Shown: in pieces, positions 10,489-63,574 of the stretch
Layout: each line of letters starts with the position of its first letter
How positions within the stretch are numbered: position 1 is the first letter of the stretch
Assembly (NCBI GenBank): GCA_964368945.1
Contig: CAYJDM010000001.1
Span: forward strand, 106,849 to 170,848
DNA length: 64,000 nucleotides
Reading direction: 5' to 3'
Source of the DNA: an uncultured Candidatus Saccharibacteria bacterium
Lineage (GTDB): Bacteria > Patescibacteriota > Minisyncoccia > Phycocordibacterales > CAIZLB01
Translations under genes and position numbers: made by a program
The notes under the pieces: generated by a model
Database searches by the model: none
Told to the model about the DNA's origin: nothing
What the model saw: only the letters and a program-made list of their open reading frames with translations

Positions 10489-11184
10489 GTGAAATCCAAA
10501 TTTGCGCATCTGAAAGATGAGGTGATTGCATTGCGTAAGCAAGGTTTTTCTATTACTGCGATAGAGAAGCAGTTTGGAATTGCCAGGTCGACTCTAAGCG
10601 GTTGGTTTCGCAAGGTTGAGCTAACAGATGAGCAAAAGGCTGCATTGGCGCCAAAAGGAAAAAATCGATGGTCCGCAGCGAGCAGGGAAAAAGCAACAGA
10701 GTGGCACAATGCTCAAAAACAAAAACGTTTGAAAGAAGCAAGGGATTCCGCTCATGAGCGGATCATGGATATGGGTTATGTTGATAAAAACATGGTGGAG
10801 ATTGCTGTTGCGATGCTTTATCTTGGCGAAGGATCAAAAGATGAAAAGACTTCTCTCGGAAACTCAAATCCTGCAATTCTTCAATTTTTCGTGATCTCGT
10901 TGATAAAGATTTACAATGTGCCCATATCAGATATAAAATGCGAACTTCATTTGCGATATGACCAAGACGAATACGCTGAGAAAAGGTATTGGTCTGGGGT
11001 ATTGAAAATTCCAATGTCTAATTTTTTGACCGCTTCGTTTGATAAAAGGACCATTGGAAGACCGACAAGGGAAGGGTACCACGGGGTGTGTATCGTTCGC
11101 TGCGGGCGCATTGCCATCATGCGCAAATTGGTATATCTTAGTAACATGTTTTGTGGCATGGCCATGGAATTATTGGGCGATTAG
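10489..11184 (+). CDS. HTH-domain protein with LAGLIDADG-like homing-endonuclease core
   Basis: N-terminal helix-turn-helix (SITAIEKQFGIARSTLSGWF); central MLYLGEGSKDEK resembles the LAGLIDADG dodecapeptide and is followed by a roughly 100-aa core; the stop codon overlaps the first 10 nt of tRNA-Val. Confidence 0.45.
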   Translation: MKSKFAHLKDEVIALRKQGFSITAIEKQFGIARSTLSGWFRKVELTDEQKAALAPKGKNRWSAASREKATEWHNAQKQKRLKEARDSAHERIMDMGYVDKNMVEIAVAMLYLGEGSKDEKTSLGNSNPAILQFFVISLIKIYNVPISDIKCELHLRYDQDEYAEKRYWSGVLKIPMSNFLTASFDKRTIGRPTREGYHGVCIVRCGRIAIMRKLVYLSNMFCGMAMELLGD

Positions 11185-11247
11185 CTCATTTGGTAGAGCG
11201 CGCCGTTGACGTCGGCGAGGTGACAGGGTCAGAACCTGTATTGCCCA
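11175..11247 (+). tRNA. tRNA-Val (anticodon GAC)
   Basis: gggcgattagctcatttggtagagcgcgccgttGACgtcggcgaggtgacagggtcagaacctgtattgccca; T-stem acagg/cctgt; no encoded CCA. Confidence 0.85.
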
Positions 11248-11325
11248 CAAATAAATATACAAAAAAGAAGGGCCGCGGCACTGATGCCGTGGCCCTTCTT
11301 TTTTTATCCAAAATCCTTAGCTGGA

Positions 11326-33021: not shown

Positions 33022-34329
33022 ATGAAATCAACTTTCAGCACATTTCAACTCGTAGTACTCATCTTCTTTATCTTCATCGGAATCGCCGGCGTCGTAGTAT
33101 TCGCTGGATTCGGCGGCACGAGCAAAGATCATGTTCCGGAAGCCGTTATTTGGGGTACGGTGCCGAATGCAACAGTCAATGAAGTGGTGCGCTTGATCAA
33201 TATTGAGAAAACAGTCATCAAGGTGACATATCAGCAGATCGCTCCCGAAAGCTTTCGCTCTACATTCGTGAATGCGCTAGCTGAAGGCAAGGGTCCTGAT
33301 ATCGTTCTCCTTTCCGATGATCTACTGTATGCAGAAGGCAATAAGCTCAGCCCTGTGCCGTATACCGTTTTTACCCAGAGAGATTATGCGGATACATATA
33401 TAAATGCGGCTGATCAGTTCATGGTCTCAAATGGAGTTCTCGGCGTGCCATTCAGCGTCGATCCTATCGCCATGTATTGGAATCGCAGCATATTTGCTAC
33501 GGAAGGAATCGCGAGCCCTCCTCGAACCTGGGATGAATTGCAGAAATTGGTGCCGAAGCTCACGCGACTCAATGATAGCAAGGGGATAGTGCGAAGCGGC
33601 GTGGCTCTCGGAGAAGTTCGAAATATTTCCGATGCAAAGGAAATCCTCGCTTCAATGCTCATGCAGAAGGGCAATACGATAACCGCTATCGATCCTCAGA
33701 CTAATGCAATCGTTTCGACGCTCGATAGGGCCGGTGCTGACAATTCATTCACTGCCGCTCAGGTTATCAGCCTCTATACATCATTCGCTGATCCTACCAG
33801 CCCTAATTATTCTTGGAGCCGATCGATGCCTGATTCTCGCAAGGCATTTCTGTCTGGCGATGTAGGCATGTATTTCGGCTATGTCAGCGATTTCGAGGCT
33901 CTTCGCCGAGAGAACCCGAACCTCGACTTCGATGTCGCGCCCATACCGCAATTCGATGATCGATTCAGCGCCACATATGGAAGGATTACGGCTTTCTCTG
34001 TCACGCGCAGGGTTACGAATGCCATGGACGCATATAATGTAATAGCAAAAATGACATCGGCCGCAGCTCAGAAGAATTGGGTGGAGCTGACAAAGATGCC
34101 GCCCGTGCGCAAGGATTTGCTCCAGGAAACGCCTAGCGACAAATATCTATCGACATTCTATCGAGCTGCCATCCAGACCCAGACTTGGTTCGATCCGGAT
34201 CCTGCATATTCGTCTACGATCTTCCGCGACATGGTAGAATCTATTACATCAGGCAAGACGCAGCCGTCGGATGCCATCAGCAATGCCAAGCAGCGACTCG
34301 ATATGCTCCTGCAAGGCATAAAATCATAA
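33022..34329 (+). CDS. extracellular solute-binding protein (family 1-like), membrane anchored
   Basis: N-terminal TM/signal anchor (start at the Met at 33022), then a roughly 400-aa alpha/beta domain with periplasmic-binding-protein-like pattern; weak call. Confidence 0.45.
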   Translation: MKSTFSTFQLVVLIFFIFIGIAGVVVFAGFGGTSKDHVPEAVIWGTVPNATVNEVVRLINIEKTVIKVTYQQIAPESFRSTFVNALAEGKGPDIVLLSDDLLYAEGNKLSPVPYTVFTQRDYADTYINAADQFMVSNGVLGVPFSVDPIAMYWNRSIFATEGIASPPRTWDELQKLVPKLTRLNDSKGIVRSGVALGEVRNISDAKEILASMLMQKGNTITAIDPQTNAIVSTLDRAGADNSFTAAQVISLYTSFADPTSPNYSWSRSMPDSRKAFLSGDVGMYFGYVSDFEALRRENPNLDFDVAPIPQFDDRFSATYGRITAFSVTRRVTNAMDAYNVIAKMTSAAAQKNWVELTKMPPVRKDLLQETPSDKYLSTFYRAAIQTQTWFDPDPAYSSTIFRDMVESITSGKTQPSDAISNAKQRLDMLLQGIKS

Positions 34330-34346
34330 TCAATAATCCGAAATAC

Positions 34347-34787
34347 ATGAAATTCGCAATCAAATTCAGACTAACATCAGCCGCGGCACGATTAGGGATG
34401 CTCGCGATCGTATTCGGATTCGCACTCTCGCTATTCGTACCGCACCATGATGCATTGGCTCAGTCAGGAGTTCTCAAGACCAAATTCACCATTCCTGCAT
34501 ATTGCAATCAGCCCCAGACTGAATGCGGGTGGGTGCAGCTGGTGCAGCTCGGAACAGAAATCCTTTCATTCGGCGTATATATCGCCATTCTCGGAGCGAC
34601 AGCGGTTATCGTCCTTGCTGGATGGAAAATCCTGACAGCTGGCGGCGATGAAGGGGCGGTCAAGACGGGCAAGAAAATGCTTTGGGCATCTATCGTCGGA
34701 ATCATCGTGACCATGTCGGCATATATGCTCGTTCAATTCGTTCTGACGAAGCTCGGCGTGATATCCGGAATTCGTTTGTTCATTTAG
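34347..34787 (+). CDS. VirB2/TrbC-like T4SS-pilin-domain protein, paralog A
   Basis: Signal peptide, a short Cys-containing segment, then a two-helix module (LAGWKILTAGGDEGAVKTGKKMLWASIVGIIVTMSAYMLVQFVL) shared with the next five genes. Confidence 0.55.
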   Translation: MKFAIKFRLTSAAARLGMLAIVFGFALSLFVPHHDALAQSGVLKTKFTIPAYCNQPQTECGWVQLVQLGTEILSFGVYIAILGATAVIVLAGWKILTAGGDEGAVKTGKKMLWASIVGIIVTMSAYMLVQFVLTKLGVISGIRLFI

Positions 34788-34825
34788 TTTGCAGTTTGAT
34801 ATACTTATTAAAAAAGCGCACAATC

Positions 34826-35827
34826 ATGGCCAATATAACCAAAACAAAACAGGAGAGGGTACCAATCTTATTCGCGCTCGGTCTTGTTCTGGTCTTGGCA
34901 TTGATTGCGATCACGCTTGTCGCTCCGAACGCAAAGCTGGCATTCAGAGGCGTCATTCTGGATGGAAAAGCACAAGTTCCTGATGCATGGAAAGTTGGCG
35001 CTACGGCCGATGCTCCGTTGGGCTCAATCGATAATCCGCTGCCTTACGACGGTGACAATAGTTTTTTTGACGAATCTGTATATGTGATCAATCCGGATGC
35101 CGATCAATTCAGCTCTGTAAACCTGGGCGATTATTTCAGCAATGAAGGCTATGTCGATGGGCCATTGTCAAATTCTTCCGTGTCATTATCTTCCTCCAGG
35201 AATACCTATTATGATCCTTTCAATACGTATTTTTCTGGCGGCAATTCGTCAATGAGCTCAACGGAGAACTTTTACGCTGGATCAGCCGTCACCACTCCTT
35301 CTACTGCTTCTCAGGCGCAATCAGCGGCAAATTCCGTGGGCAATGCGGTCAATTCGGCTTTTGGCTCGGTATTCGGCAATGGCACTGGCGGCGGGGCGGC
35401 TGGATCTGCTGGCACGGCGGGCACTCAGTCAACTGCCGGATCGGCTGTTTTGGCAGGAAATACTTCGGGCAATTTCTCGGCGCCAACGTCTGCAGCTGGA
35501 AAAAATACCGGCGTTAATAAAGCAGCGGCAACTGCGGTGAATTGTACCGGAACGGCATGCCAGTTCCAGAATCCTCTAGGAACGAAAAACAGCTCGCTGG
35601 ATATTTTTCTCAATAGCATCCTCGATGTCATCATCCTCATCGGAGGAATAGTCGTGGTAATCATGATCATCCTTGCTGGCCTCAAATATGTCACGGCTCA
35701 AGGAGATGAAAGCAAGATCGAATCTGCGCATAAGCAGCTTACATGGACGGTTGTCGGCGCAGGAATCCTCCTTGGAGCGAAAGTGATCGCTCTGGTCATC
35801 CAAAATACAGTCAAGGCTTTAACATAA
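34826..35827 (+). CDS. VirB2/TrbC-like pilin-domain protein with long low-complexity ectodomain, paralog B
   Basis: N-terminal signal anchor; roughly 230-aa S/G/A/T/N-rich region; C-terminal pilin module LAGLKYVTAQGDESKIESAHKQLTWTVVGAGILLGAKVIALVIQNTV. Confidence 0.55.
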   Translation: MANITKTKQERVPILFALGLVLVLALIAITLVAPNAKLAFRGVILDGKAQVPDAWKVGATADAPLGSIDNPLPYDGDNSFFDESVYVINPDADQFSSVNLGDYFSNEGYVDGPLSNSSVSLSSSRNTYYDPFNTYFSGGNSSMSSTENFYAGSAVTTPSTASQAQSAANSVGNAVNSAFGSVFGNGTGGGAAGSAGTAGTQSTAGSAVLAGNTSGNFSAPTSAAGKNTGVNKAAATAVNCTGTACQFQNPLGTKNSSLDIFLNSILDVIILIGGIVVVIMIILAGLKYVTAQGDESKIESAHKQLTWTVVGAGILLGAKVIALVIQNTVKALT

Positions 35828-37354: not shown

Positions 37355-38212
37355 ATGAGCAAAGAAATCCTGTCCATGAATCTAGGAATTGAAGAAAATC
37401 CAGCAGATTCAGCTGAAGCTTCTGCTAATGCAGATATCGATGCTTTGCCAAGCATGCCGGTTTTTGAGCATGGCAGCGTAGGAGTTGATGATACCGAAGG
37501 CCTTCCTGACGATCTCCTTTCTTCTAAAGAAAAAAGAGCAAGAGAGATCCATCATATTAGAGAGGCCCTCGAAAAGGCATCCAGCCATGAACCGATCGAT
37601 GAGGAAAAAAAGGCTGCGATAAAGGCGAATGTGAATATGATCATGCCCAAGCTCGGCCTTCCACCCATGAAAACGCTCAAGGTACCAGATGAGCAGTTCG
37701 GCGAGACGGAACCGCTTAGAATGAATGGTCCGGTGAATATCCTCATGGTAGATAATGAGCCTCTTACCATAATAGACTTGATCACGCCGCTGAGCGTCGT
37801 AAGCGAGGGTCATCTGGATGTTTTTATCCAGACAAGGGAAAGCGCGCGAGAAGTTGCCGAGAAGATAGCAGGCATGGACCCGCAGCCGGATATCATCGTG
37901 ATGGATTATGATCTCGCCGGCATAATGGGGGATGAGGTTATCGCCGAGCTCAAGGGCCTTGGCGTGAAATCTCATATTGTCGGAAGATCGGGCAATGAGG
38001 CAGCGATCCTCGACTTCTTGAAATACAATGTGCCGATTGCATTCTATAAGCCTCGAGATTGCGATATCGATGAGGAGATGGCCTTTCTCGCTGAATTGTA
38101 TGATGATAGAAATGCGAAGTTTCTTGATCCGAAAATCGCAGAAGGCCTTGTATATGATGAGCCTATCGAAGGCCGTCCTAAGGAAGGGGACGAAGAGAAG
38201 GTTGGGGAATAA
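37355..38212 (+). CDS. orphan response-regulator receiver-domain protein with acidic N-terminal extension
   Basis: C-terminal CheY-like REC pattern (ILMVDNEP ... DIIVMDYDLAGIMGDEVIAELK ... PIAFYKP); no output domain seen. Confidence 0.5.
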   Translation: MSKEILSMNLGIEENPADSAEASANADIDALPSMPVFEHGSVGVDDTEGLPDDLLSSKEKRAREIHHIREALEKASSHEPIDEEKKAAIKANVNMIMPKLGLPPMKTLKVPDEQFGETEPLRMNGPVNILMVDNEPLTIIDLITPLSVVSEGHLDVFIQTRESAREVAEKIAGMDPQPDIIVMDYDLAGIMGDEVIAELKGLGVKSHIVGRSGNEAAILDFLKYNVPIAFYKPRDCDIDEEMAFLAELYDDRNAKFLDPKIAEGLVYDEPIEGRPKEGDEEKVGE

Positions 38213-38233
38213 AAAGAATGTCCTTGCCCACAA

Positions 38234-38270
38234 AATAAAAAGGCCTCCGTTCTGGAGGCCTTTTTATTTT
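38234..38270. terminator. bidirectional terminator between the receiver gene and tRNA-Leu
   Basis: Stem aggcctcc/ggaggcct flanked by A-run and T-run. Confidence 0.6.
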
Positions 38271-38271
38271 G

Positions 38272-38353
38272 TGGGCAAGGAGGGACTCGAACCCTCAACC
38301 CTTACGGGACCAGTTCCTAAGACTGGCGCGTATACCAATTCCGCCACTTGCCC
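38272..38353 (-). tRNA. tRNA-Leu (anticodon TAG), class II with long variable arm
   Basis: Reverse complement gggcaagtggcggaattggtatacgcgccagtctTAGgaactgg + variable arm tcccgtaagggttga + gggttcgagtccctccttgccca. Confidence 0.85.
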
Positions 38354-39488: not shown

Positions 39489-39610
39489 TGTATTAAATGA
39501 TATGGGTAATTTGATATAAGTGTATCATCGGCCGCGAATAAAAGTAATTTTCGTGGCGCTTTTTCTTAATGAAAAATTAATATTGCCATCAAACGCTTCT
39601 TGCGCACTTG

Positions 39611-39693
39611 TGCCCGGGGTGGGACTCGAACCCACAAAGCATTGCTGCTACGACATTTTAAGTGTCGCGAGTTTACCATTTCTCCACCTGGGC
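39611..39693 (-). tRNA. tRNA-Leu (anticodon TAA), class II
   Basis: Reverse complement gcccaggtggagaaatggtaaactcgcgacactTAAaatgtcg + long variable arm + gtgggttcgagtcccaccccgggca; one A-C mismatch in the acceptor stem. Confidence 0.8.
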
Positions 39694-40169
39694 ATGATAT
39701 TTCTCCCTCTATGGGTCGATTTCAGGCTATGACAATTGGGACATAATATCCTGAGATTGGACAGGCGATTGTCATTTCTGTCGCCATTTATATGATCCAA
39801 TTCAACTGGGATTCTACCATCTTCAGATGCCTTTGCCCAGCCGCACTCCTCGCATCTTTTTTCTTTCAATCCGGCGTCGAATAGCTTGTTTTTAAGCTTA
39901 TGGCTTTGGTATGTCGAATTTTGCACTAAAACATCCTCGAGAGAATATTTCATGCCTCCCTTACGATTCGGCCCACAATTGGCTGCTCGGCCCAGAAAAT
40001 GACTTATATCGAGCCCGTGTTCAGCGATTAGTCTTTTTATGTGTGCGTAATTCCCACCGGCTGGAATTAAGCCGAGCGTCTCGATTACTTGGCGGTAACT
40101 GTGTGAATTTTTTACAGCATCCCACAGTTGCTCGATCTTCCATTTGTATACGCCGCGTTTTTTCTTCAT
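39648..40169 (-). CDS. HNH endonuclease
   Basis: CEECGW ... ELDHINGDRNDNRLSNLRILCPNCHS (HNH/zinc-finger motif); start taken at MKKKRGVYKW; the last roughly 15 codons run through the 5' half of tRNA-Leu(TAA). Confidence 0.65.
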   Translation of the reverse strand: MKKKRGVYKWKIEQLWDAVKNSHSYRQVIETLGLIPAGGNYAHIKRLIAEHGLDISHFLGRAANCGPNRKGGMKYSLEDVLVQNSTYQSHKLKNKLFDAGLKEKRCEECGWAKASEDGRIPVELDHINGDRNDNRLSNLRILCPNCHSLKSTHRGRNIMPRWRNGKLATLKMS

Positions 40170-40215
40170 TAACCGAATTATAATCCAACCAGTATGAAGA
40201 AAAAATGAATTTTTG

Positions 40216-40288
40216 AGGTGTAGGCCGGGGTCGAACCGGCGCATAACAGTTTTGCAAACTGCCGCGTTAACCACTTCGCCACTACACC
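40216..40288 (-). tRNA. tRNA-Cys (anticodon GCA)
   Basis: Reverse complement ggtgtagtggcgaagtggttaacgcggcagtttGCAaaactgttatgcgccggttcgaccccggcctacacct; discriminator U as expected for Cys. Confidence 0.85.
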
Positions 40289-49039: not shown

Positions 49040-50803
49040 ATGAACACCAAAAACCTGCTCATCGCCCTCGTGGCCATGATGGGCCTCTTAGGGATCCGGT
49101 CCGTACGGGCTGATCCCTCGCTCTCCGTGAGCGAAACATCAGCGCAACAAGCTGTTGCGCCTCGCAATGTCTGGATTCGCCCGCTCTTCGGTGCGCGCAA
49201 TACAGCGGTCTATCGGTTCGACGCGAAGAGCGCGAACGGCGCCTGCAAGGCGAACGAAGTCAAGCTGAGCATACCGCCAACGGCGCGTATTCCTGAACAG
49301 GTCTACGTATACGATGGCGGCGTTCAACTGGCGTCGGGACTTCCCGATCAAGCGAATCGAACTGTCAGCCTTAACGGGTTCTCACTCGACATTCCGCAAG
49401 GTGCCACAAAGACATTGACCATCCTGGCTGACTATCCGCGGACCGACTATGTCGGCCCCTACGGAGAGTACGCCCAGGTCGAACTCGTTTCTGTCGGTTA
49501 TGTGACGGCAACGAATGTCGCCGCAACGGCAACACCATCTTCAAAAATGGTCAGCGCCCAGCAGCGGCTCTTTCGCCCGATGTCCGCAAACATTGGCGTC
49601 GATGAGACCCCGACTATCATAGAGGAAAGGAACTCAAGCGGAGTCCTGACCTCAATGTACGGACTCTTCGTAGTCACGTTCAAGCCGGAAGGCGGCAGCC
49701 TGAGGTCTCCCCAAGCCGAGGATTTCGTTATTCTCGGTCAGGTCGGTGGCGATGAAGTGCCATGCCAAGTAAGGGTATACGGAAGTGTTTCAGAGGTTCA
49801 GAGTGACTCGACGTACTACGCCTATGTAGGCGGTAGCATTCCGCTGCGCATTGAAGGTGCAAACCATCAGCGCGCCGGCGCAGTCAGCTTCCGAATCGCA
49901 CAGGTTACCTGGGAAAATCATCCCAATTCACCTGCCATATCGACTCAGCAGACCTGGGGTCTGGAGAGTCTGACCACGGCAACGACGGCAGTTCTGCCGA
50001 AGCCGGATTCTGAATCATCGGTAACTGCTGGTCGGGTAGGAAAGGTGAGTACGAAGGTTTGGGATGAAATCACAAGTGCCTTGAAGCCCGTTGACGGTTT
50101 CAAGGGGCAAGTGGTTTCCGAAGGCGGACAGATTCTGATCTGCCCTACGAATCCCAACCAGAAGAAATATCTGGTATTCCCGACGACCCATCCGCTAGGC
50201 GGACAGATCGCTGAGGTTGACGTTGTCGTAACACCGACCACGATGACCCCCTCGGTCCGCGCCCCAGAAGACCTGTCTGTCGACTCGCGCGAGACGCTGG
50301 TGGAATATCCGCTGACCTCTCTCGTTAGGATTCCAACGTCGCAACAGACGATGCTGGCAAATTTCGAGGTTACTCTCGGAGGCCTCCACGTACAAGGGAA
50401 GGCGATCCGCACGGGTCCGCTTACCGCAAGCCTGCAGTTCTATTGGGATTGCGAAAACGGCGTCTCGAACGCTCCCGGTGCAAACCTGGACCGTCTGGAT
50501 CTGGCTCCCGGATATACGACCGGCAATATCGAGTCTCGTCCGATGCGCTTTGATCTCGGGATTGGGCAGGTGTCGAAAGACTCCAGCTCTTTCCGTCTGA
50601 ATGTCAAAGGTGCTCCAGGAGCGTACTCCGTGTACACTTCCAAGGATCTCGCATCAGGCTGGGTTCCTGCAGACTTCGAATACGGCCCGATGCAATCGGC
50701 CGCAGTCGGAGGCGCTACGATGACCGGCGAATTGCGGATTCCGTCCGCATCGCTGACAACGCCCGAAGCGCCGACCCGCTTCTTTCGATTGGAGGTGCGA
50801 TGA
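49040..50803 (+). CDS. secreted hypothetical protein, GC-rich, paralogous to the 20929 gene
   Basis: Signal peptide MNTKNLLIALVAMMGLLGIRSVRA; 587 aa, beta-rich; GC near 58 percent and CGC/CGG arginine codons, unlike the CGA-rich neighbours; C-terminus DLASGWVPADFEY...RFFRLEVR. Confidence 0.55.
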   Translation: MNTKNLLIALVAMMGLLGIRSVRADPSLSVSETSAQQAVAPRNVWIRPLFGARNTAVYRFDAKSANGACKANEVKLSIPPTARIPEQVYVYDGGVQLASGLPDQANRTVSLNGFSLDIPQGATKTLTILADYPRTDYVGPYGEYAQVELVSVGYVTATNVAATATPSSKMVSAQQRLFRPMSANIGVDETPTIIEERNSSGVLTSMYGLFVVTFKPEGGSLRSPQAEDFVILGQVGGDEVPCQVRVYGSVSEVQSDSTYYAYVGGSIPLRIEGANHQRAGAVSFRIAQVTWENHPNSPAISTQQTWGLESLTTATTAVLPKPDSESSVTAGRVGKVSTKVWDEITSALKPVDGFKGQVVSEGGQILICPTNPNQKKYLVFPTTHPLGGQIAEVDVVVTPTTMTPSVRAPEDLSVDSRETLVEYPLTSLVRIPTSQQTMLANFEVTLGGLHVQGKAIRTGPLTASLQFYWDCENGVSNAPGANLDRLDLAPGYTTGNIESRPMRFDLGIGQVSKDSSSFRLNVKGAPGAYSVYTSKDLASGWVPADFEYGPMQSAAVGGATMTGELRIPSASLTTPEAPTRFFRLEVR

Positions 50804-51029: not shown

Positions 51030-51113
51030 GCGCAGATGGCGGAGCGGTCAATCGCAATTGACTGTAAATCAATCGCCCATTGGGCTACGCAGGTTCGAAT
51101 CCTGCTCTGCGCA
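51030..51113 (+). tRNA. tRNA-Tyr (anticodon GTA), class II
   Basis: gcgcagatggcggagcggtcaatcgcaattgactGTAaatcaat + variable arm cgcccattgggcta + cgcaggttcgaatcctgctctgcgca. Confidence 0.85.
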
Positions 51114-51170
51114 CAAAATGAAAAACCCCTTTATGGGGTTTTTCATTTTGTGCGCAGAGCAGGATTCGAA
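51094..51170. repeat. 36-bp perfect inverted repeat incorporating the last 20 nt of tRNA-Tyr
   Basis: ttcgaatcctgctctgcgcacaaaatgaaaaacccc, spacer tttat, then ggggtttttcattttgtgcgcagagcaggattcgaa; this generates the mirror-image ORFs 51028-51459 and 51069-51317 in the track. Confidence 0.8.
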
Positions 51171-51291
51171 AGCCGGACCGCAGCTCCGATGTGAGCGTAG
51201 CGAACCGGAGCAAGGGAGGCGGGGTCGACAGGCTTTTTGCGAAGCAAAAAGAACTGGTGACCGAATCCTGAATCTTTCTTGCTTATGTTGT

Positions 51292-51513
51292 CTACTTATC
51301 CTCCTCTCTCGCATCAAACTCCTTCGTCATCCTTTCATACCATTGCTCCTTAGTCTCAGTCTGCGGATTATTAGGGTCCATGATTTTGTCCATATGCGCC
51401 TGATCTGCTTGCATATGCGCCATGCCTTTCTGGATGATCTCATCGAAAGTCTCGCCTGAGAATTTCTCATCGCAGATTCCGCCCAATTCCTTGCATGTGA
51501 ATGTTTTTGTCAT
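51292..51513 (-). CDS. DUF1059-like small protein
   Basis: MTKTFTCKELGGICDEKFSGETFDEIIQKGMAHMQ matches the DUF1059 N-terminal pattern as I recall it; start at the internal Met (track ORF 51292-51579). Confidence 0.5.
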   Translation of the reverse strand: MTKTFTCKELGGICDEKFSGETFDEIIQKGMAHMQADQAHMDKIMDPNNPQTETKEQWYERMTKEFDAREEDK

Positions 51514-51649
51514 GATAGTAAAAGTATAGCAGATCAAACTGCGAATTCGTTTTTCAAGACAATATGCAGTTCTTTGCACGCATTATTGCCGAACTGGGCG
51601 CTTTCGAACCCTGCTCTCTTTAATGAATATTGACATATGCAAGTTATAA

Positions 51650-52150
51650 TTGTACTCTAAAAAAGAACAACCAGCACAACCCATTCAGATTACGATGAAT
51701 CCAGAACAGAATAAAATCAGCCAGATAATCGAAAGGCTCAAGGCGAGGAGATGCATAGGGCATGTCTTCGAGAGGGGGATGAGATCCATCCGCTCCGTTC
51801 GCGACAATGGCACCGTCCATTGCGTGACCAGAATCAAGGACATTACGGTGCACATATCGAAATTTACAAATGTGAAAAAGCAGCGGAAGGCAATATCGCC
51901 AGAACCTTCCGATTCGGCCAGTGACATCGTGACGACTTGGTTTCAGATGTGTGTGAAAGACCTGGCAGCGACAACTGGAAGAAGGTTTCCCATGAAGGAA
52001 ACCGTAGCGGGTCCGGGAGAGGTTTTGCATGATGAAATGGAAGGCCTTTTCGAGCAGGCATTCAAGAAGGCAAAGCCATTCAATCCTGGTTCTCAGGAGC
52101 GACAGGCAGCATTGTCAGCATTGCAATTCGTTCTCGATACGATTGGCTAA
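51650..52150 (+). CDS. hypothetical protein (possible inserted cassette)
   Basis: 166-aa ORF flanked by degenerate direct repeats and followed by the hairpin aggggcggcgcc/ggcgccgccttt. Confidence 0.3.
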   Translation: MYSKKEQPAQPIQITMNPEQNKISQIIERLKARRCIGHVFERGMRSIRSVRDNGTVHCVTRIKDITVHISKFTNVKKQRKAISPEPSDSASDIVTTWFQMCVKDLAATTGRRFPMKETVAGPGEVLHDEMEGLFEQAFKKAKPFNPGSQERQAALSALQFVLDTIG

Positions 52151-52180
52151 AGGGGCGGCGCCAGCATGGCGCCGCCTTTC

Positions 52181-52495
52181 TCACATCTGATTTTTAACAA
52201 TGATATGCAGTTCTTTGCAAACAGCCTCGATGCTCTTGATCAAAACCTCAGGCCGCTTCGTATACAGGACCAAAAGCTGCACAGCGCTGCCTTCCTTGAT
52301 TTGGAGGGCGATGCCGGCAGAGCAGGGAGAGGCCTTGAGCCTTCGCTCCCCATTGGGCCGCCCACCCGTCTTGATCTCGCCGAACTGGACGCTTTCGAAG
52401 CCGTCAGCCTTCTTGATCTCGTCGACCAGCTTTTCAGCCAGCCCTATGGCCGTCGTATGGCTGCCGCGCCGCTTGTTTCCTTTGAGGCCTTTCAT
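52181..52495 (-). CDS. YhbY/CRM-domain-like RNA-binding protein (possible)
   Basis: LKGNKRRGSHT..IGLAEKLVDEIKKA...ELVQ..VLYTKRP loosely matches the CRS1/YhbY pattern (L.gkqkr...iGk.GlT..v..eId.a....ELvKv......lVq..G...vLYRP); start taken at MKGLKG. Confidence 0.4.
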   Translation of the reverse strand: MKGLKGNKRRGSHTTAIGLAEKLVDEIKKADGFESVQFGEIKTGGRPNGERRLKASPCSAGIALQIKEGSAVQLLVLYTKRPEVLIKSIEAVCKELHIIVKNQM

Positions 52496-59703: not shown

Positions 59704-61026
59704 CTAATTGACGAAGATCTCCTTTCCTTTGATCGTCACCTTGTTTTTCAGGCAGCCTAGCAATTCTCTTTTCTCTATATCCGTACCAGATTTAAAGATG
59801 TACTTAGTGTAGTTCCGTATATCAATATCCTTAACCTCTACCGAATCTTTGATATCCAATAGCGCATGGTTGAATTTCTTCATTCTCTCGACTTCTAATT
59901 TTATCTTTTGATTAATGGATGTCTCGTCAAGATTGATTTTGTCCATAAGCTTTATAAATTGCTGTATCAAGTCAGGCTCGTTTATATACTCCCGCTTACA
60001 TTCTGGGTTGCGTGATCTGCTGCAGGCATAGTACACGTGGCGGTTAATTGATCCATCTTTCTGTTTCTTGAATTTTTCTTCCGCGGATATTCCAGAACCG
60101 CATAATCCGCAGTTCATGAGCTTGGTGAATGCGAATTCTTTGGGTTCTCCTGTGCGAAGGATCTGGCTTTTGATCTGAGCTTGAACCAATTCAAAAAGTT
60201 CTTTTGAAATCAATGGTTCGTGCTTTCCCGTATACCAGTTTCCGCTTTTTGCGGGATATTCAAATACTCCGTAATAAAAATGATTTTCCAGTAATGTATA
60301 GATATTCCCCAAACTCATATGCTTGTGTCCGCAAACAGTTCTGAAATTAAGATCAAATTTGAGCCAGTGAAAAATCTTTCTACCTGTCCATTTCTCGTAC
60401 GCAACCTTTTCAAATATGCTCTTAATGATATGTCCTCGCTCAGGATCAACGTATACCTGGCATTTCCTATCGATCCTTTTTTCGCTTAGATATCCGGTCG
60501 GCGCTCTACCTGGCCACAGCCCCATCTCGCATCTTGTGCGCATGCCTCGTTTTACGTTTATGCTCTTGTTGTCGTTCTCTAGCTTGGCTTGTGAACAGAG
60601 AATCATCAATAAGAACTTTTCATTCGGTGAATTTCTAAATTGTTGTCCGTATGTTCGTATTTCTGATAGCAGCCCTTGATCCATCAAATCTACGACAGAT
60701 CCAAGATCACCTGCATTTCTAGAAAGTCTGTCTGGCGCCCAAGTCAAGATTCCGTTGAATCTTTGTCTTCGTATATCTTCCAATAATTCTTTATAGACTG
60801 GTCTCTGTCCAGAATCCTTTGCAGAATGCGATTCTCTGCGAATATCAATAATCTCTAATCCGTCTCGTTCAGCTATTTGTAGCATTTCTTTTACTTGAGA
60901 CTCAATCGACAAAGCTTGTTTCTCATCTGACTCGGTACTCTTGCGGGCATATAAGCAATACTTAGTTTTTGCTTGTGGCACTATCTCCGCCATCCGTATT
61001 TGGGCATTTGTGCCTAGTTGTTGCAT
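59704..61026 (-). CDS. large serine recombinase (integrase)
   Basis: Resolvase catalytic domain YARKSTESDEKQALSIESQ with the Ser nucleophile; recombinase domain; zinc-ribbon CGLCGS...YYACSRSRNPEC; 440 aa. Confidence 0.8.
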   Translation of the reverse strand: MQQLGTNAQIRMAEIVPQAKTKYCLYARKSTESDEKQALSIESQVKEMLQIAERDGLEIIDIRRESHSAKDSGQRPVYKELLEDIRRQRFNGILTWAPDRLSRNAGDLGSVVDLMDQGLLSEIRTYGQQFRNSPNEKFLLMILCSQAKLENDNKSINVKRGMRTRCEMGLWPGRAPTGYLSEKRIDRKCQVYVDPERGHIIKSIFEKVAYEKWTGRKIFHWLKFDLNFRTVCGHKHMSLGNIYTLLENHFYYGVFEYPAKSGNWYTGKHEPLISKELFELVQAQIKSQILRTGEPKEFAFTKLMNCGLCGSGISAEEKFKKQKDGSINRHVYYACSRSRNPECKREYINEPDLIQQFIKLMDKINLDETSINQKIKLEVERMKKFNHALLDIKDSVEVKDIDIRNYTKYIFKSGTDIEKRELLGCLKNKVTIKGKEIFVN

Positions 61027-61389
61027 ATATTAATTAATGACAGACCACCCAACCTTGCATAGCTATGCAGAACAACCGAAACGTAGTGTGGTCGCGTCAG
61101 CTCTTAGCAAGAAGGTCTTTCAGCGATAGGATATGGATTAATAGCCCAGATTGGGCTATTATGAGCATTAACAACTTAATATTGCTGACCTAACCCTATG
61201 GCCTCAAACCCTAGGCATGGTCAAAATCCGCTAAAGTGTAAAAACCTCCTCGTCAGGAGTCACTTTAGCGGTCGTATCTGGAAACGGGTACGGGTTGAGC
61301 CGAAAGGTTCAATCGCAACTGGCGGGGAGATTTTTGCTATCTCACTTTTGCCATTTATCATAAAAGCAAAACAAAACCGCTAAAGTTTT

Positions 61390-62112
61390 ATGAATAATAC
61401 AAATACTTCTCCGGACGGAGAAGGTAAAAATAGCTTTAAGCAATTCTTTGCAAAGCATCCATTTTGGAGTTGGACAATCGCAGGATTCCTCATCAGTCGG
61501 ATTCCAAAATTAGAATGGGTATTACCAATATTTTTGGTAATAGGTTTATATCAGTTTCTCAAACACAAAGGTAATCGAAAGAAACAAAATGTTTCTGATC
61601 GAAAGGAAGCAGTGACCAAGGGTATGGAGGAATTCGTTGCTCAGATAAAACAACAGAAAGCTCTGACTCCAATCTCATCATCACTTGTTTTAGGGCCAAA
61701 GGAGCAGGCATTCTTAGAAGAAGAGACTGCATTGCAGGAAACAAGATCAGTTCGCCAATTCCGTAGCACGGGAGTTCGGGTTCGATTGATGAAAGGATTA
61801 TCGGTTGGTCAGTCTGGAGGCAGGGCAGAGAGTCATAAAGAATGGAGAATCTTGGATACAGGAAAACTTATCCTTACGAATAAGAAGTTGGTGTTTGACG
61901 GAGGGAAAGAAGATCGAACAATCCCTTTGGATAAGATACTTACGATCTCACCAATGCTCGACGCGATAGAGGTATCCTCATCTTCAAGAAGCGGATCAAT
62001 GGTATTTCCAGTTAAGAATCCGTTCATTTGGGCAACAACCATTCGCATCCTAAGCGCAGTCGAGGATCCTTTGAATTTGGGAGATCTCGATCTGAACGTA
62101 CAGGTCAAATAA
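61390..62112 (+). CDS. membrane protein with bacterial PH-like (bPH/YdbT-like) domain
   Basis: N-terminal TM helices followed by WRILDTGKLILTNKKLVFDGGKEDRTIPLDKILTI, a bPH_2-like pattern; lies between the integrase and terminase genes on the opposite strand. Confidence 0.4.
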   Translation: MNNTNTSPDGEGKNSFKQFFAKHPFWSWTIAGFLISRIPKLEWVLPIFLVIGLYQFLKHKGNRKKQNVSDRKEAVTKGMEEFVAQIKQQKALTPISSSLVLGPKEQAFLEEETALQETRSVRQFRSTGVRVRLMKGLSVGQSGGRAESHKEWRILDTGKLILTNKKLVFDGGKEDRTIPLDKILTISPMLDAIEVSSSSRSGSMVFPVKNPFIWATTIRILSAVEDPLNLGDLDLNVQVK

Positions 62113-63574
62113 AGTAAACCCGAGGAGGATTGGGAGGGTGCTCCGTGGCATCTAACACCAGGTTGGAAAACGCATCAGCGAGGTCATCGTGTTTCTCGAC
62201 CCCGAAGTGTACGATCTGGTTTATCAGCTCTTCACATCCTTCCCGTGGAAATTTCACTCGACCGCTTTTGATGAGATTGGCAGTGAGTACCAGACGGCTT
62301 CGCTTGTCCTGATTTCCTGGCCTTGTCGATCTGACTTTCGGAATGCCTTCGCTTATCAATTGCTGGGGCAATGCTTTCTGGTATGCGACATCTTCTATTA
62401 CGAAGGTTGGATACATTCGATCCGATTCTGCATACGATTTGTTCAGTATCTTGCATGTCTCGACAGTCTCGGGAAAAGTCATCCTCTTGTTGATAATCTT
62501 CGGCAGGATGTAAATATCGTAACTCGATTCGGTCTCAAACAATAGACCGGGAACCATGGCAGTGTAGTCAGCAGTGGCACTCTTGGAAATCGCCAGATCT
62601 ATTCCGATACGAGTTTCCGTATGAGAAACATATCTTCCGTATATGGGTATCTTCGCAGGAATCACATCGTAATATTGGATCCATTCTCGGTGAATGGCCT
62701 GCTCCTCATCCGATACGATGTTGAGCAGATATTCTCTCTGCCAAGCAAACTCATTTCCAGCCTTTTTCTTTTCCTTCTCGACTTCGGCCATGGATGGATA
62801 TTTTCCAAGCCAAAGAATCTGTCCGTTCTCAATCAACGGATATTGCTTGAATATTCCACCTATGCGATCCTTTTCAATATCTTCCTTTATTCGCATGAGT
62901 AAGGAATCTTCGTGCAAAAGGTTTCCAATAACAACGAGGCGGGTGTTTATGTCTCCTGTGGGAATGACTTCGCTTGTCAGCCACTGATAGGTCTTGTTTC
63001 GACCTTCTCTTGTCTTCGTGGAAGCGATATCCTCTACGTCGTCGCAGATGATGAGATCGGGCCGATGCTGATTGTGCCGAAGCCCTCGGATACTTTGTTC
63101 TGAAGATGCCGCAGTGATTCGAGCGTTTGAATTTGAGAACACAAGGGAAGAAGATCCCCATTCATCGGATTCCTCCCTGAACGGCCCGAGATCGTTCTTG
63201 AGCACAGCATTGTCTTCAAGCTCTCTTCGCAGGTTCATCATGTGCTGTTTGGCTTGGCTCTGAGTCTGGCAGAGGATCAGAACGAATTTCTTCTGCGGCT
63301 TCCCAAGAATTGCCCAGATAGGGTAGGAGGTGGTGAGGATTGTGGATTTCCCGCATCCTCGGAATGCCACGATGAAGAAGTTGCCGAGCTCCTCATTCTC
63401 GGTCAAGTTGAATATCTCATTGTGAAAATCCGCTGTTGCATATCTCACATAGTGGGCGAAATACAGATGGAAGAAATACCAATGGCTTTCCTTCGTTATC
63501 GCGGCTCTAATCTTTCGGTCCTGAATCATCTGATCCACCAGTTCCTGTGGAATTATCTTCGGTTTGTTTTCCAT
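62105..63574 (-). CDS. phage terminase large subunit
   Basis: ATPase Walker A AFRGCGKST; Walker B LIICDDVED; C-terminal RNaseH-like nuclease region IGIDLA...D; 489 aa. Confidence 0.7.
   Translation of the reverse strand: MENKPKIIPQELVDQMIQDRKIRAAITKESHWYFFHLYFAHYVRYATADFHNEIFNLTENEELGNFFIVAFRGCGKSTILTTSYPIWAILGKPQKKFVLILCQTQSQAKQHMMNLRRELEDNAVLKNDLGPFREESDEWGSSSLVFSNSNARITAASSEQSIRGLRHNQHRPDLIICDDVEDIASTKTREGRNKTYQWLTSEVIPTGDINTRLVVIGNLLHEDSLLMRIKEDIEKDRIGGIFKQYPLIENGQILWLGKYPSMAEVEKEKKKAGNEFAWQREYLLNIVSDEEQAIHREWIQYYDVIPAKIPIYGRYVSHTETRIGIDLAISKSATADYTAMVPGLLFETESSYDIYILPKIINKRMTFPETVETCKILNKSYAESDRMYPTFVIEDVAYQKALPQQLISEGIPKVRSTRPGNQDKRSRLVLTANLIKSGRVKFPREGCEELINQIVHFGVEKHDDLADAFSNLVLDATEHPPNPPRVYFI

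What the first reader, a model, noticed from the sequence alone, without database searches (positions are those of the whole stretch)
51030..52230. tRNA-Tyr 3' end embedded in a 36-bp perfect palindrome, followed by nested partial repeats: probable recombination scars
Three separate repeat structures sit in 1.2 kb. (a) The last 20 nt of tRNA-Tyr plus 16 nt downstream are exactly repeated in inverted orientation after a 5-nt spacer (51094-51170). This would give a 36-bp perfect hairpin that sequesters the tRNA 3' strand. (b) A 15-nt copy of the tRNA 3' end with one mismatch (ttcgaaccctgctct) recurs at 51603-51618 as a direct repeat, the classic signature of site-specific integration into a tRNA gene. 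(c) About 38 nt from the 3' coding end of the YhbY-like gene (52185-52222, ...KELHIIVKNQM) are duplicated at 51547-51584, bracketing the ORF 51650-52150. Together these suggest successive small insertion and excision events at this tRNA-proximal site. The DUF1059 gene and ORF 51650-52150 may be cargo.
Basis: seen in the sequence. Interest (0 to 1): 0.55.

Follow-up and report, generated by a model that had tools for sequence, protein, structure and literature searches.

The report
Small insertion element at tRNA-Tyr tail
The perfect 36-bp palindrome after tRNA-Tyr is the left end of a roughly 150-bp non-coding insertion element; relatives of this candidate-phyla bacterium carry the same element family at the 3' end of different tRNA genes, each time flanked by a 19-base copy of that tRNA's own tail, and no such element family appears to have been described.

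Summary
All three repeat structures are real and non-random. The 36-nt perfect inverted repeat is 51094-51129/51135-51170. The 15-nt tRNA-tail copy is at 51603-51617. There are two (not one) fragments of the neighbouring 104-aa gene at 51550-51608.

They are not isolated scars. The palindrome is the left end of a 147-bp non-coding element (51115-51261): a terminator hairpin, an antisense copy of the tRNA tail, a two-hairpin spacer, then a partial second copy of the tail (51262-51270).

Close relatives (ClpB 95-97% identical) show presence/absence polymorphism. In L207 and L215 a homologous 194-195-bp element (79-84% identical to the right part of the window's) sits in tRNA-Trp. It is flanked by exact 19-nt repeats of tRNA positions C56-C74, and the distal copy keeps CCA and the original flank. 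The window, L206 and L208 have the empty tRNA-Trp site.

The palindrome reaches 0, 2, 8 or 20 nt into tRNA-Tyr in four relatives, so the perfect 36-mer is a young, lineage-specific extension.

A second tRNA-embedded palindrome lies at tRNA-Leu (38221-38281). There is no Rfam match and no integrase next to the site. 'YhbY-like' is not supported. The mobilising enzyme is unknown.

The parts
51030..51113 (+). tRNA-Tyr (GTA). CCA is not encoded; C74 is at 51114.
   Evidence: ARAGORN; Rfam tRNA model, 62.8 bits.
51096..51114 (+). Proximal copy of the 19-nt tail segment, tRNA positions C56-C74 (CGAATCCTGCTCTGCGCAC). This is the segment duplicated on insertion in relatives.
   Evidence: Boundaries defined from the exact 19/19 repeats in L207, L215, L087, L147 and L141.
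51094..51170 (.). Perfect palindrome: 36-nt arms 51094-51129 and 51135-51170, loop 51130-51134.
   Evidence: -67.7 kcal/mol.
51115..51149 (+). Left end of the element: A/T-flanked hairpin AAAATGAAAAACCCC-TTTAT-GGGGTTTTTCATTTT. It has the form of a bidirectional intrinsic terminator. L208 has the same sequence, and the tRNA-Leu trailer is near-identical.
   Evidence: The simple terminator scan does not call it, because the T-run lies inside the long stem.
51150..51170 (+). Antisense copy of tRNA positions T54-C74 (GTGCGCAGAGCAGGATTCGAA). Homologous positions in relatives hold only a degenerate anti-T-loop motif.
   Evidence: alignment A3. The extension into the tRNA is 0, 2, 8 and 20 nt in L207, L206, L208 and the window.
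51171..51261 (+). Element spacer with two hairpins (about 51172-51220 and 51223-51262), closed by pairing of 51160-51167 with 51263-51270. It ends in GGTGAC.
   Evidence: Fold z-score -3.7; helices. It is 84% identical to the L215 tRNA-Trp insert and 79% to the L207 tRNA-Trp insert.
51262..51270 (+). Distal, decayed copy of the tRNA tail (CGAATCCTG): the displaced original T-loop/T-stem.
   Evidence: The homologous copies are CGAATCCTGCTCT in L208, CGAATCCTGCT in L207 and CGAATCCTGTCCT in L206.
51292..51516 (-). DUF1059 gene (74 aa). It is absent from this position in all relatives examined.
   Evidence: Pfam. Homologues lie in unrelated contexts; synteny comparison.
51550..51608 (-). Remnant of the neighbouring 104-aa gene. 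It consists of two colinear fragments that read in frame by manual codon reading, with an internal deletion of about 150 nt.
   Evidence: It is closest to the window's own gene (24/29 and 20/21) rather than to the relatives' genes.
51603..51617 (+). Second distal tRNA-tail copy (TTCGAACCCTGCTCT). It is joined to the gene remnant exactly at TTCGAA/CGAA.
   Evidence: The intact gene has TTCGAA at the homologous place, 52394-52399.
51650..52150 (+). ORF166. It has no family match and is absent from relatives at this position.
52154..52176 (.). GC-rich hairpin between the convergent ORF166 and the 104-aa gene (GGCGGCGCC-AGCAT-GGCGCCGCC).
   Evidence: Read from the sequence.
52181..52495 (-). It is conserved and syntenic in relatives at 65-87% identity.
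38221..38281 (.). Second case in the window: a perfect 28-nt-arm palindrome. Its arm 38254-38281 contains the last 10 nt of tRNA-Leu(TAG) (38271-38353, minus strand). The trailer motif is the same, CAAAATAAAAA plus a GC stem.
   Evidence: -51.1 kcal/mol.

Best explanation
The palindrome is the left end of a small, non-coding, non-autonomous insertion element (51115-51261, 147 bp) lodged at the 3' end of tRNA-Tyr.

Members of this family occur in Patescibacteria directly after position C74 of tRNA genes. Reading 5' to 3', an element has:
- an A followed by a long, near-perfect, A/T-flanked hairpin that replaces the tRNA's own trailer and terminator;
- a segment antisense to the T-loop and T-stem;
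- a 70-170-nt spacer that folds into two or three hairpins.

After the element comes a second copy of tRNA positions C56-C74. This is the displaced original tail, followed by the original flank.

Shown:
- insertion polymorphism between close relatives;
- exact 19-nt repeats that always match the local tRNA;
- the same element family at tRNA-Tyr and tRNA-Trp;
- loss of the encoded CCA on insertion.

Inferred:
- The repeat is a 19-bp target-site duplication made by staggered cuts before C56 and after C74, by an enzyme supplied in trans and not identified here.
- The antisense segment pairs with the tail copy and may take part in target recognition.
- The window's unusually long perfect palindrome arose secondarily. 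The roughly 25 nt to the right of the terminator were overwritten by an inverted copy of the last 21 nt of the tRNA. The proposed route is hairpin-templated strand switching (quasi-palindrome perfection).
- Farther downstream, a second event at the decayed tail copy duplicated part of the neighbouring gene (junction at CGAA/TTCGAA) and left DUF1059 between two tail copies.
For: Occupied against empty sites. L207 and L215 carry exact 19-nt repeats of tRNA-Trp C56-C74, 214 and 213 nt apart. The distal copy keeps CCA, and its flank is homologous to the tRNA-Trp flank of the window (28/50 and 36/50 identical). The window, L206 and L208 lack the insert and encode CCA.

Same family at different tRNAs. 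Positions 86-147 of the window's tRNA-Tyr element are 84% identical to the L215 tRNA-Trp insert (E 8e-15) and 79% to the L207 tRNA-Trp insert (E 5e-12). Positions 54-111 are 74% identical to the L207 tRNA-Tyr insert.

Repeats elsewhere. Further repeats of 18-19 out of 19 lie 94-149 nt downstream in L087, L147, L141 and L126, and one flanks 2955 nt in L095.

Enrichment. Among 326 tRNAs, the own downstream region holds an antisense copy in 15, a sense copy in 13, and antisense followed by sense in 5. With permuted tRNA/flank pairs the counts are 37, 29 and 2 per 2900. Upstream regions give 3, 0 and 0.

Structure. All 14 units fold as a closing stem plus internal hairpins. In a hand-curated subfamily, 10 distinct P3 helices and 7 distinct P1 helices are 98-100% paired, against 51-66% with swapped partners.

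Palindrome length varies among close relatives. The extension into the tRNA is 0, 2, 8 and 20 nt. The outer arms of the L207 and L215 hairpins differ completely, yet each pair is perfectly complementary.

The site is variable: tRNA-Tyr is followed by the element plus different genes in the window, L206, L207, L208 and L213, and only by a terminator in L215.
Against: - No enzyme was identified. No tyrosine recombinase, transposase or Cas1 was found among 57 window ORFs scanned with Pfam.
- The element has no terminal inverted repeats.
- A 19-bp duplication cannot be told apart, from sequence alone, from an att identity block that has been homogenised by gene conversion.
- In the window itself the distal copies are decayed (9 and 13-15 nt), so membership rests on homology to the relatives' elements.
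- The sample is about 20 elements from metagenome contigs, and no complete genome was scanned.
- The covariation counts come from hand-curated helices.
- Template switching as the source of the perfect arms is inferred from the pattern, not observed.
Confidence: 0.6

Rival explanations
1. These are remnants of classical tRNA-targeting integrative elements. A tyrosine integrase recombines an attP, which carries the tRNA tail as an identity block, with the T-loop of the tRNA gene. The 150-200-bp units are what is left of the attP arms after the interior of the element is lost, like cis-mobilisable elements (CIMEs).
For: Direct repeats run from the T-loop to the end of the tRNA, as in known tRNA att sites. 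A 2.9-kb AT-rich islet in L095 is flanked by an 18/19 repeat. In L147 and L095 the proximal copy has CCA and the distal copy lacks it. L150 and the tRNA-Leu of L186 carry tail or half-tRNA copies of a different allele.
Against: The same element family sits at tRNA-Tyr and tRNA-Trp, and each time the proximal copy is specific for that tRNA. A fixed attP block would create a chimeric, dead tRNA. No integrase lies next to any of the units examined or within the window. The unit size is too uniform for random internal deletions.
Confidence: 0.2
2. The module is a functional structured RNA in the tRNA 3' trailer. The antisense segment pairs with the tRNA's T-arm and acceptor strand, or with the downstream tail copy. 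It could act as a processing, quality-control or termination device, or be a tRNA-like small RNA.
For: The three-way-junction fold is conserved with covarying helices. One subfamily has conserved unpaired motifs: GUAC(U/C)G and a CUGUAAG loop that resembles the tRNA-Tyr anticodon loop. The sense strand folds better than the antisense strand in 10 of 14 units. Trailers are complementary to the acceptor 3' strand more often than expected: 18 observed against 3.8.
Against: A strong terminator-type hairpin lies between the tRNA and the module, and another terminator often follows it, so the module should be poorly transcribed. Presence varies between close relatives at both tRNAs. The window's copy has lost the conserved motifs. 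There is no Rfam family.
Confidence: 0.1
3. No mobile element is involved. All the repeats are local by-products of replication errors (template switching or slippage) at terminator hairpins next to a highly transcribed gene.
For: The arms are perfect and their length differs between close relatives. Quasi-palindrome correction by strand switching is an established mutational route (my own knowledge). The tRNA-Leu case shows only a 10-nt extension and nothing else.
Against: This does not explain homologous spacers of about 60-150 nt at different tRNA genes and in different genomes. It does not explain the exact 19-nt direct repeats with a constant C56 and C74 boundary. It does not explain tandem arrays of units.
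Confidence: 0.08
4. The palindrome is an assembly or amplification artefact (a fold-back chimera).
For: Short-k assemblies break at both palindromes: L082 ends at 51161 and L209 ends near 38224.
Against: Unique sequence continues on both sides. L208, from an unrelated sample, has the same trailer hairpin with a different loop and an 8-nt extension. Contig breaks at palindromes longer than k are expected behaviour.
Confidence: 0.02

Closest known systems
Casposons and CRISPR spacer integration (Cas1-family integrases)
   Same: Integration is at the 3' end of tRNA genes and gives an unusually long, fixed-length target duplication: 14-15 bp for casposons and the repeat length for CRISPR (my own knowledge). 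Tandem arrays form at one site, as in L139, L148 and L186.
   Different: The duplication here is 19 bp. There are no terminal inverted repeats. The elements are 130-250 bp with no genes. No Cas1 was seen in the window. The link is a mechanistic analogy only.
tRNA-gene att sites of tyrosine-integrase islands and their integrase-less derivatives (CIMEs)
   Same: Direct repeats of the tRNA 3' part flank the inserted DNA, and the tRNA is restored by the proximal copy.
   Different: The proximal copy adapts to whichever tRNA is occupied. No integrase is present. The element has a constant small size and a conserved fold.
Folded-hairpin recombination sites (integron attC; CTX-phi attP(+))
   Same: An inverted copy and a direct copy of the target core, 60-140 nt apart, pair into a stem with a variable branched tip. 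Units form arrays next to a primary site.
   Different: There are no GTTRRRY/RYYYAAC boxes. No integron integrase or Xer context was found. The stem is only about 9-10 bp and is degenerate in the youngest inserts (L207, L215).
MITEs, REPINs and other structured bacterial miniature repeats (Correia elements, RPEs)
   Same: They are short, non-coding, strongly folding, non-autonomous, lie close to terminators, and vary between strains.
   Different: The elements are not dispersed: they are found only after tRNA genes. They lack terminal inverted repeats. The duplication is long and tRNA-defined.
Quasi-palindrome correction by intramolecular template switching (Ripley model; shown in E. coli)
   Same: It converts imperfect inverted repeats into perfect ones and extends them into the flanking sequence. 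This fits the 0, 2, 8 and 20-nt series.
   Different: It explains only the arm extension. It does not explain the element or the direct repeats.

Membership tests
tRNA-targeting tyrosine-integrase genomic island (attL/attR) | Direct repeats of the tRNA 3' segment flank the inserted DNA. | tested here: met
   19/19 repeats in L207, L215, L087, L147 and L141. In the window there are partial copies at 51262-51270 and 51603-51617.
tRNA-targeting tyrosine-integrase genomic island (attL/attR) | An integrase gene lies inside or next to the element. | tested here: not met
   The units are 130-250 bp with no ORF. There is no HxxR-type motif in any window ORF. There is no Phage_integrase hit among 57 ORFs. 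The gene calls around L206-L208 and L213-L216 show none adjacent.
tRNA-targeting tyrosine-integrase genomic island (attL/attR) | The element-borne identity block is specific for one tRNA. | tested here: not met
   Homologous elements sit at tRNA-Tyr and tRNA-Trp, and each has matching repeats.
MITE (miniature inverted-repeat transposable element) | Terminal inverted repeats. | tested here: not met
   The left and right ends of the L207, L215 and window elements are not complementary, by inspection of the sequences.
MITE (miniature inverted-repeat transposable element) | Short, non-coding, flanked by a target duplication, polymorphic. | tested here: met
   The duplication is atypically long at 19 bp.
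Integron attC site | R''/R' core boxes RYYYAAC ... GTTRRRY. | tested here: not met
   The cores are GGATTCGAA ... CGAATCC. GTTCGAA has C at the fourth position (sequences).
Casposon / Cas1-mediated integration | Cas1-family integrase and terminal inverted repeats. | tested here: not met
   There is no Cas1 hit in the window ORFs and no terminal inverted repeats. The rest of the genome could not be searched.
Rho-independent (intrinsic) terminator | A GC-rich stem directly followed by a T-run. | tested here: inconclusive
   The core CCCC-TTTAT-GGGG plus TTTTTCATTTT has the form. The stem has only 4 GC pairs, and the scan tool does not call it because the T-run is inside the 36-bp stem. Relatives have clearer versions.
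Any Rfam RNA family | A score at or above the gathering threshold. | tested here: not met
   Only tRNA passes. All other hits are far below threshold.
YhbY/CRS1 (PF01985), as proposed for 52181-52495 | A match to the Pfam model. | tested here: not met
   No hit at E <= 10.
DUF1059 (PF06348), for 51292-51516 | A match above the gathering score. | tested here: met
   22.5 bits against a cut-off of 21.1.

The most novel reading that the evidence does not exclude
Patescibacteria harbour an undescribed class of miniature elements that home to the 3' end of tRNA genes. They duplicate exactly tRNA positions 56-74 and swap the encoded CCA and native trailer for their own palindromic terminator. A still unknown enzyme moves them; the candidates are a Cas1- or casposase-like integrase, or a tRNA-gene-specific nuclease such as the HNH endonuclease encoded between two tRNAs in this window.

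This activity would explain three things: why many tRNA genes of these bacteria lack CCA yet keep C74, why tRNA neighbourhoods there are so plastic, and why small tRNA genes flip orientation between relatives.
Probability: 0.4. Interest if true: 0.8.

Novelty: new variant of a known kind. Interest (0 to 1): 0.68.

Why it matters
If confirmed, this is a new mode of tRNA-gene targeting: a 19-bp duplication defined by tRNA structure (T-loop to C74), carried out by elements too small to encode anything.

It gives a concrete, testable origin for CCA-less tRNA genes in candidate-phyla bacteria. In the data here, insertion turns a CCA-encoding tRNA-Trp gene into a CCA-less one, and 62 of 69 CCA-less genes in the sample keep C74.

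It also points to an unidentified site-specific DNA enzyme.

On the practical side, the long perfect palindromes break short-read assemblies at tRNA genes. The tail copies can also be mistaken for att sites of genomic islands.

Tried and rejected
- **Rfam.** Searches of the window region, of eight loci with units, and of L206 returned only tRNA. The microRNA-like hairpin hits are chance.
- **Hammerhead or other small ribozyme.** The junction sequences lack the CUGANGA/GAAA core (by inspection).
- **Integron attC.** There are no R boxes.
- **Terminal inverted repeats.** None found.
- **Small conserved ORF inside the units.** None is shared between units.
- **Restriction-site avoidance of TTCGAA.** The site is over-represented (41 observed against 16.6 expected), so there is no such signal.
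- **DUF1059 homologues.** They lie in unrelated contexts and did not help locus comparison.
- **Viral contigs.** No match to the tRNA-Tyr pattern.
- **HMM and regex searches with one unit subfamily.** They found copies only next to tRNAs and did not reach the other subfamilies.
- **MAFFT alignment of the tRNA-Trp loci.** It misplaced the insertion gap, so the boundaries were taken from exact repeat positions instead.
- **PHROGs.** No match for the local ORFs.
- **Conservation of the tRNA-Leu palindrome in relatives.** This could not be tested, because the relatives' contigs end at or before it, or carry the tRNA in the other orientation.
Full report
**1. Checking the observation**

The window comes from a Patescibacteria (candidate phyla radiation) genome. 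The best GTDB relative by ClpB is a Candidatus Paceibacterota MAG at 67% identity. Two independent Logan assemblies of sister samples are 100% identical to parts of the window.

tRNA-Tyr(GTA) lies at 51030-51113 and does not encode CCA. The inverted repeat 51094-51129/51135-51170 has 36-nt arms, is 100% complementary and has a 5-nt loop. It is the longest local inverted repeat in the 64 kb and folds at -67.7 kcal/mol.

The 15-nt copy of the tRNA tail at 51603-51617 is real: 4 hits with at most 1 mismatch against 0.03 expected.

- 51550-51578 matches 52191-52219 with a 17-nt exact core.
- 51588-51608 matches 52379-52399 at 20/21.

My manual codon reading of the sequence on the minus strand gives FESAQFG-NNA-CKELHIVLKNEFAV*, which would make the region a gene remnant with an internal deletion. 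I did not confirm this frame with a translation tool.

The gene itself (52181-52495, 104 aa) has no YhbY match even at E <= 10. The DUF1059 call is correct.

**2. The palindrome is not unique**

The second-longest perfect inverted repeat in the window (28-nt arms, 38221-38281) also swallows a tRNA 3' end. It covers the last 10 nt of tRNA-Leu(TAG), which lies on the minus strand. Its trailer motif is almost the same: CAAAAT(G)AAAAA followed by a GC stem.

I scanned metagenome contigs with a tRNA-Tyr pattern and obtained 120 loci holding 343 tRNAs. In these loci, trailers carry a complement of the acceptor 3' strand more often than chance: 18 cases with at least 7 nt against 3.8 expected from permuted tRNA/trailer pairs.

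**3. A recurrent module**

Many Patescibacteria-type tRNAs (Tyr, Trp, Val, Leu) are followed by the same layout:
- the complete tRNA;
- a long, near-perfect, A/T-flanked hairpin;
- a segment antisense to the T-loop and T-stem 3' strand, sometimes also to the acceptor strand;
- a 70-170-nt spacer with two or three hairpins;
- a second, direct copy of the tRNA tail.

Using a 10-nt probe (C56-C65) with at most 1 mismatch on 326 tRNAs, the counts were as follows:

| Region searched | Antisense copy | Sense copy | Antisense then sense |
|---|---|---|---|
| Own downstream (326 tRNAs) | 15 | 13 | 5 |
| Own upstream (326 tRNAs) | 3 | 0 | 0 |
| Permuted tRNA/flank pairs (2900) | 37 | 29 | 2 |

All 14 extracted units fold as a closing stem (antisense segment paired with tail copy) around internal hairpins. 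The sense strand is the more stable in 10 of 14.

One subfamily (L118, L139, L148, L186, L206, L213) keeps the unpaired motifs GUAC(U/C)G and a CUGUAAG loop. In hand-curated helices of this subfamily, 10 different P3 stems and 7 different P1 stems are 98-100% paired, against 51-66% with swapped partners. The units form tandem arrays of two or three in L139, L148 and L186.

No Rfam family matches.

The window has such a unit. 51160-51167 pairs with 51263-51270 around hairpins at about 51172-51220 and 51223-51262 (z-score -3.7). A 9-nt tail copy, CGAATCCTG, lies at 51262-51270.

**4. Close relatives settle what it is**

Homologues of the 104-aa gene (65-87% identity) led to syntenic contigs L206, L207, L208 and L213-L216. 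The shared gene order is ClpB (95-97% amino-acid identity in L206 and L207), a variable stretch, tRNA-Tyr, the 104-aa gene, L33, tRNA-Trp.

*tRNA-Trp.*
- The window, L206 and L208 encode CCA followed by a common flank.
- L207 and L215 carry an insert of 195 and 194 bp. It is bounded by exact 19-nt repeats of tRNA positions C56-C74, with repeat starts 214 and 213 nt apart.
- In both, the proximal copy completes a CCA-less tRNA. The distal copy keeps CCA, and its flank is homologous to the empty sites: 36/50 (L215) and 28/50 (L207) identical to the window flank, compared with 42/50 for the empty L208 site.
- L213 and L214 have an older copy with a decayed repeat.

*tRNA-Tyr.*
- The window, L206, L207 and L213 have full units.
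- L208 has a short one.
- L215 and L216 have only a hairpin, followed directly by the 104-aa gene.

*Homology between elements.* Positions 86-147 of the window's tRNA-Tyr element are 84% identical to the L215 tRNA-Trp insert (E 8e-15) and 79% to the L207 tRNA-Trp insert (E 5e-12). Positions 54-111 are 74% identical to the L207 tRNA-Tyr insert.

One element family therefore occupies two different tRNA genes, and in each case the flanking repeats match the local tRNA. Further repeats of 18-19 out of 19 with the same C56 and C74 boundaries occur in L087, L147, L141 and L126. One flanks a 2955-nt AT-rich islet in L095.

**5. Mechanism: what is shown and what is inferred**

Shown:
- Insertion occurs after C74.
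- C56-C74 is duplicated.
- The native trailer and the encoded CCA are replaced.
- The family is shared across tRNA species.
- Sites are polymorphic between relatives.

Inferred:
- The repeat always matches the occupied tRNA, so I read it as a 19-bp target duplication (staggered cuts before C56 and after C74) rather than a fixed attP block. Concerted evolution of an identity block cannot be excluded from sequence alone.
- The enzyme is unknown. Among 57 window ORFs scanned with Pfam there is no tyrosine recombinase, transposase or Cas1.
- The window does encode an HNH endonuclease wedged between tRNA-Cys and tRNA-Leu(TAA). It also encodes a large serine recombinase with a terminase from 59.7 kb on. 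The serine recombinase belongs to a prophage, and by established knowledge that class does not create such repeats.

**6. Why the window's palindrome is so long**

In four close relatives the hairpin extends into the tRNA by 0 nt (L207), 2 nt (L206), 8 nt (L208, which has the same trailer as the window but a different loop) and 20 nt (the window).

Alignment A3 shows that the window's antisense 21-mer occupies the place where the L207 elements carry only a degenerate anti-T-loop motif.

The outer hairpin arms of the L207 and L215 tRNA-Trp inserts are completely different in sequence, yet each pair is perfectly complementary. This points to a process that copies one arm from the other.

The best fit is hairpin-templated strand switching (quasi-palindrome correction), which extends the terminator palindrome into the adjacent tRNA tail. 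It is a young, lineage-specific state and not a conserved device. The 10-nt extension at tRNA-Leu fits the same process.

**7. The distal repeats**

The relatives carry a 315-348-aa gene between the element and the 104-aa gene. The window instead has DUF1059 (minus strand), the gene remnant, the second tail copy and ORF166.

The remnant is closest to the window's own gene (24/29 and 20/21) and not to the relatives' genes (13-19 matches), so it is a local duplication. Its junction with the tail copy lies exactly at TTCGAA/CGAA. The intact gene has TTTCGAAGCC at the homologous place, which resembles the T-loop target GTTCGAATCC.

I interpret 51271-51604 as a second event at the decayed tail copy, leaving tail remnants at 51262-51270 and 51603/51605-51617. 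The exact order of events cannot be reconstructed.

**8. Rivals**

- A classical integrase islet remnant fits the repeats and the L095 islet. It does not fit the tRNA-switching or the absence of an integrase.
- A functional trailer RNA fits the covarying fold and the strand bias. It does not fit the terminators that bracket the module or its presence/absence between close relatives.
- Pure replication error explains the arm extension but not the shared spacers.
- An assembly artefact is excluded by independent samples.

**9. Verdict**

The feature is a member of an apparently undescribed family of miniature elements that insert at the tRNA tail. There is no Rfam match, and four full-text literature searches found nothing relevant. 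On top of the element sits a lineage-specific palindrome extension.

Main limits: there are about 20 elements from metagenome contigs, no enzyme has been identified, no expression data are available, and part of the structural counting was curated by hand.

Noticed in passing
window 38221-38281 (tRNA-Leu(TAG) 38271-38353, minus strand): A second perfect palindrome (28-nt arms, 5-nt loop) contains the last 10 nt of a CCA-less tRNA. Its trailer motif is nearly the same as at tRNA-Tyr. The far arm abuts the stop codon of the convergent gene 37355-38212.
   Followed up: partly
window tRNAs at 11175-11248, 38271-38353, 39610-39693, 40215-40288 and 51030-51113; loci L086-L205: All five CCA-less tRNA genes in the window continue with C74 and then A. 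In the metagenome sample, 62 of 69 CCA-less genes keep C74, and position 75 is A in 45 and T in 19. This fits replacement of the flank after C74, or else a processing constraint.
   Followed up: partly
window 39648-40274 (minus strand; gene call 39648-40169): An HNH endonuclease ORF (HNH_3 and HNH, both above cut-off) sits between tRNA-Cys and tRNA-Leu(TAA), and its 3' end overlaps the tRNA. It is a free-standing nuclease gene in a tRNA cluster and a possible candidate for tRNA-gene cleavage.
   Followed up: no
window 59704-63574: A large serine recombinase (59704-61026, minus strand) and a terminase large subunit (62105-63574) indicate a prophage or integrated element at the right end of the window. 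L207 has the same pair downstream of tRNA-Trp.
   Followed up: no
L002 4863-4949; L211/L212 near 2030-2061: Single tRNA genes are flipped relative to conserved neighbours in relatives. tRNA-Tyr is inverted relative to ClpB in L002. tRNA-Leu(TAG) is inverted relative to the homologue of gene 37355-38212 in L211 and L212.
   Followed up: no
L206 9817-11221 (locus coordinates): A reverse transcriptase (RVT_1) and a bAvd-like gene, the hallmark of a diversity-generating retroelement, lie about 44 nt upstream of tRNA-Tyr. The window has the 587-aa secreted-type ORF 49040-50803 at that position.
   Followed up: no
L094, L100, L107, L108, L125, L130, L145, L154, L170, L174 (tRNA-Tyr GGGGAGG...CCCCTCCCCACCA): In a GC-rich, unrelated lineage the tRNA-Tyr trailer forms a hairpin followed by TGGTGGGGAGGGG. 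This is complementary to the tRNA 3' end including CCA, and is followed in turn by an acceptor-like mini-hairpin GGGGAGG-GGC-CTCCCC.
   Followed up: no
L095 141-3094: A 2.9-kb AT-rich islet with four ORFs (membrane protein, SRPBCC-like, FAD-oxidase-like, methyltransferase-like; my reading of the translations) lies after tRNA-Tyr. It is flanked by an 18/19 copy of C56-C74. The proximal copy has CCA and the distal copy lacks it. There is no integrase.
   Followed up: partly
L150 (tRNA-Tyr 1774-1858) and L141 (tRNA-Tyr 498-584, minus strand): Half-tRNA pseudogenes (variable arm to 3' end) lie 25-40 nt after the intact tRNA-Tyr. In L150 the fragment comes from a different allele with compensatory T-stem and acceptor changes.
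   Followed up: no
L082 end (window 51161), L209 end (window about 38224), L208 start (window 51076): Independent short-k assemblies break at or next to both palindromes. tRNA-tail palindromes are a systematic cause of contig ends in these genomes.
   Followed up: partly
window 10489-11184: A 231-aa ORF with an N-terminal resolvase-type HTH (HTH_7, 26.3 bits) ends at the start of the CCA-less tRNA-Val.
   Followed up: no
window 34185-35827 and L209: Tandem genes with T4SS-pilin (TrbC/VirB2-like) domains lie upstream of the tRNA-Leu region.
   Followed up: no
L207 (tRNA-Tyr insert) and L139 (third unit): An identical 21-mer, CGTACAGCTCCTGTAAGGAGG (the GUAC motif plus the CUGUAAG hairpin), occurs in two distantly related genomes. 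This suggests either strong constraint or horizontal spread of that sub-module.
   Followed up: no
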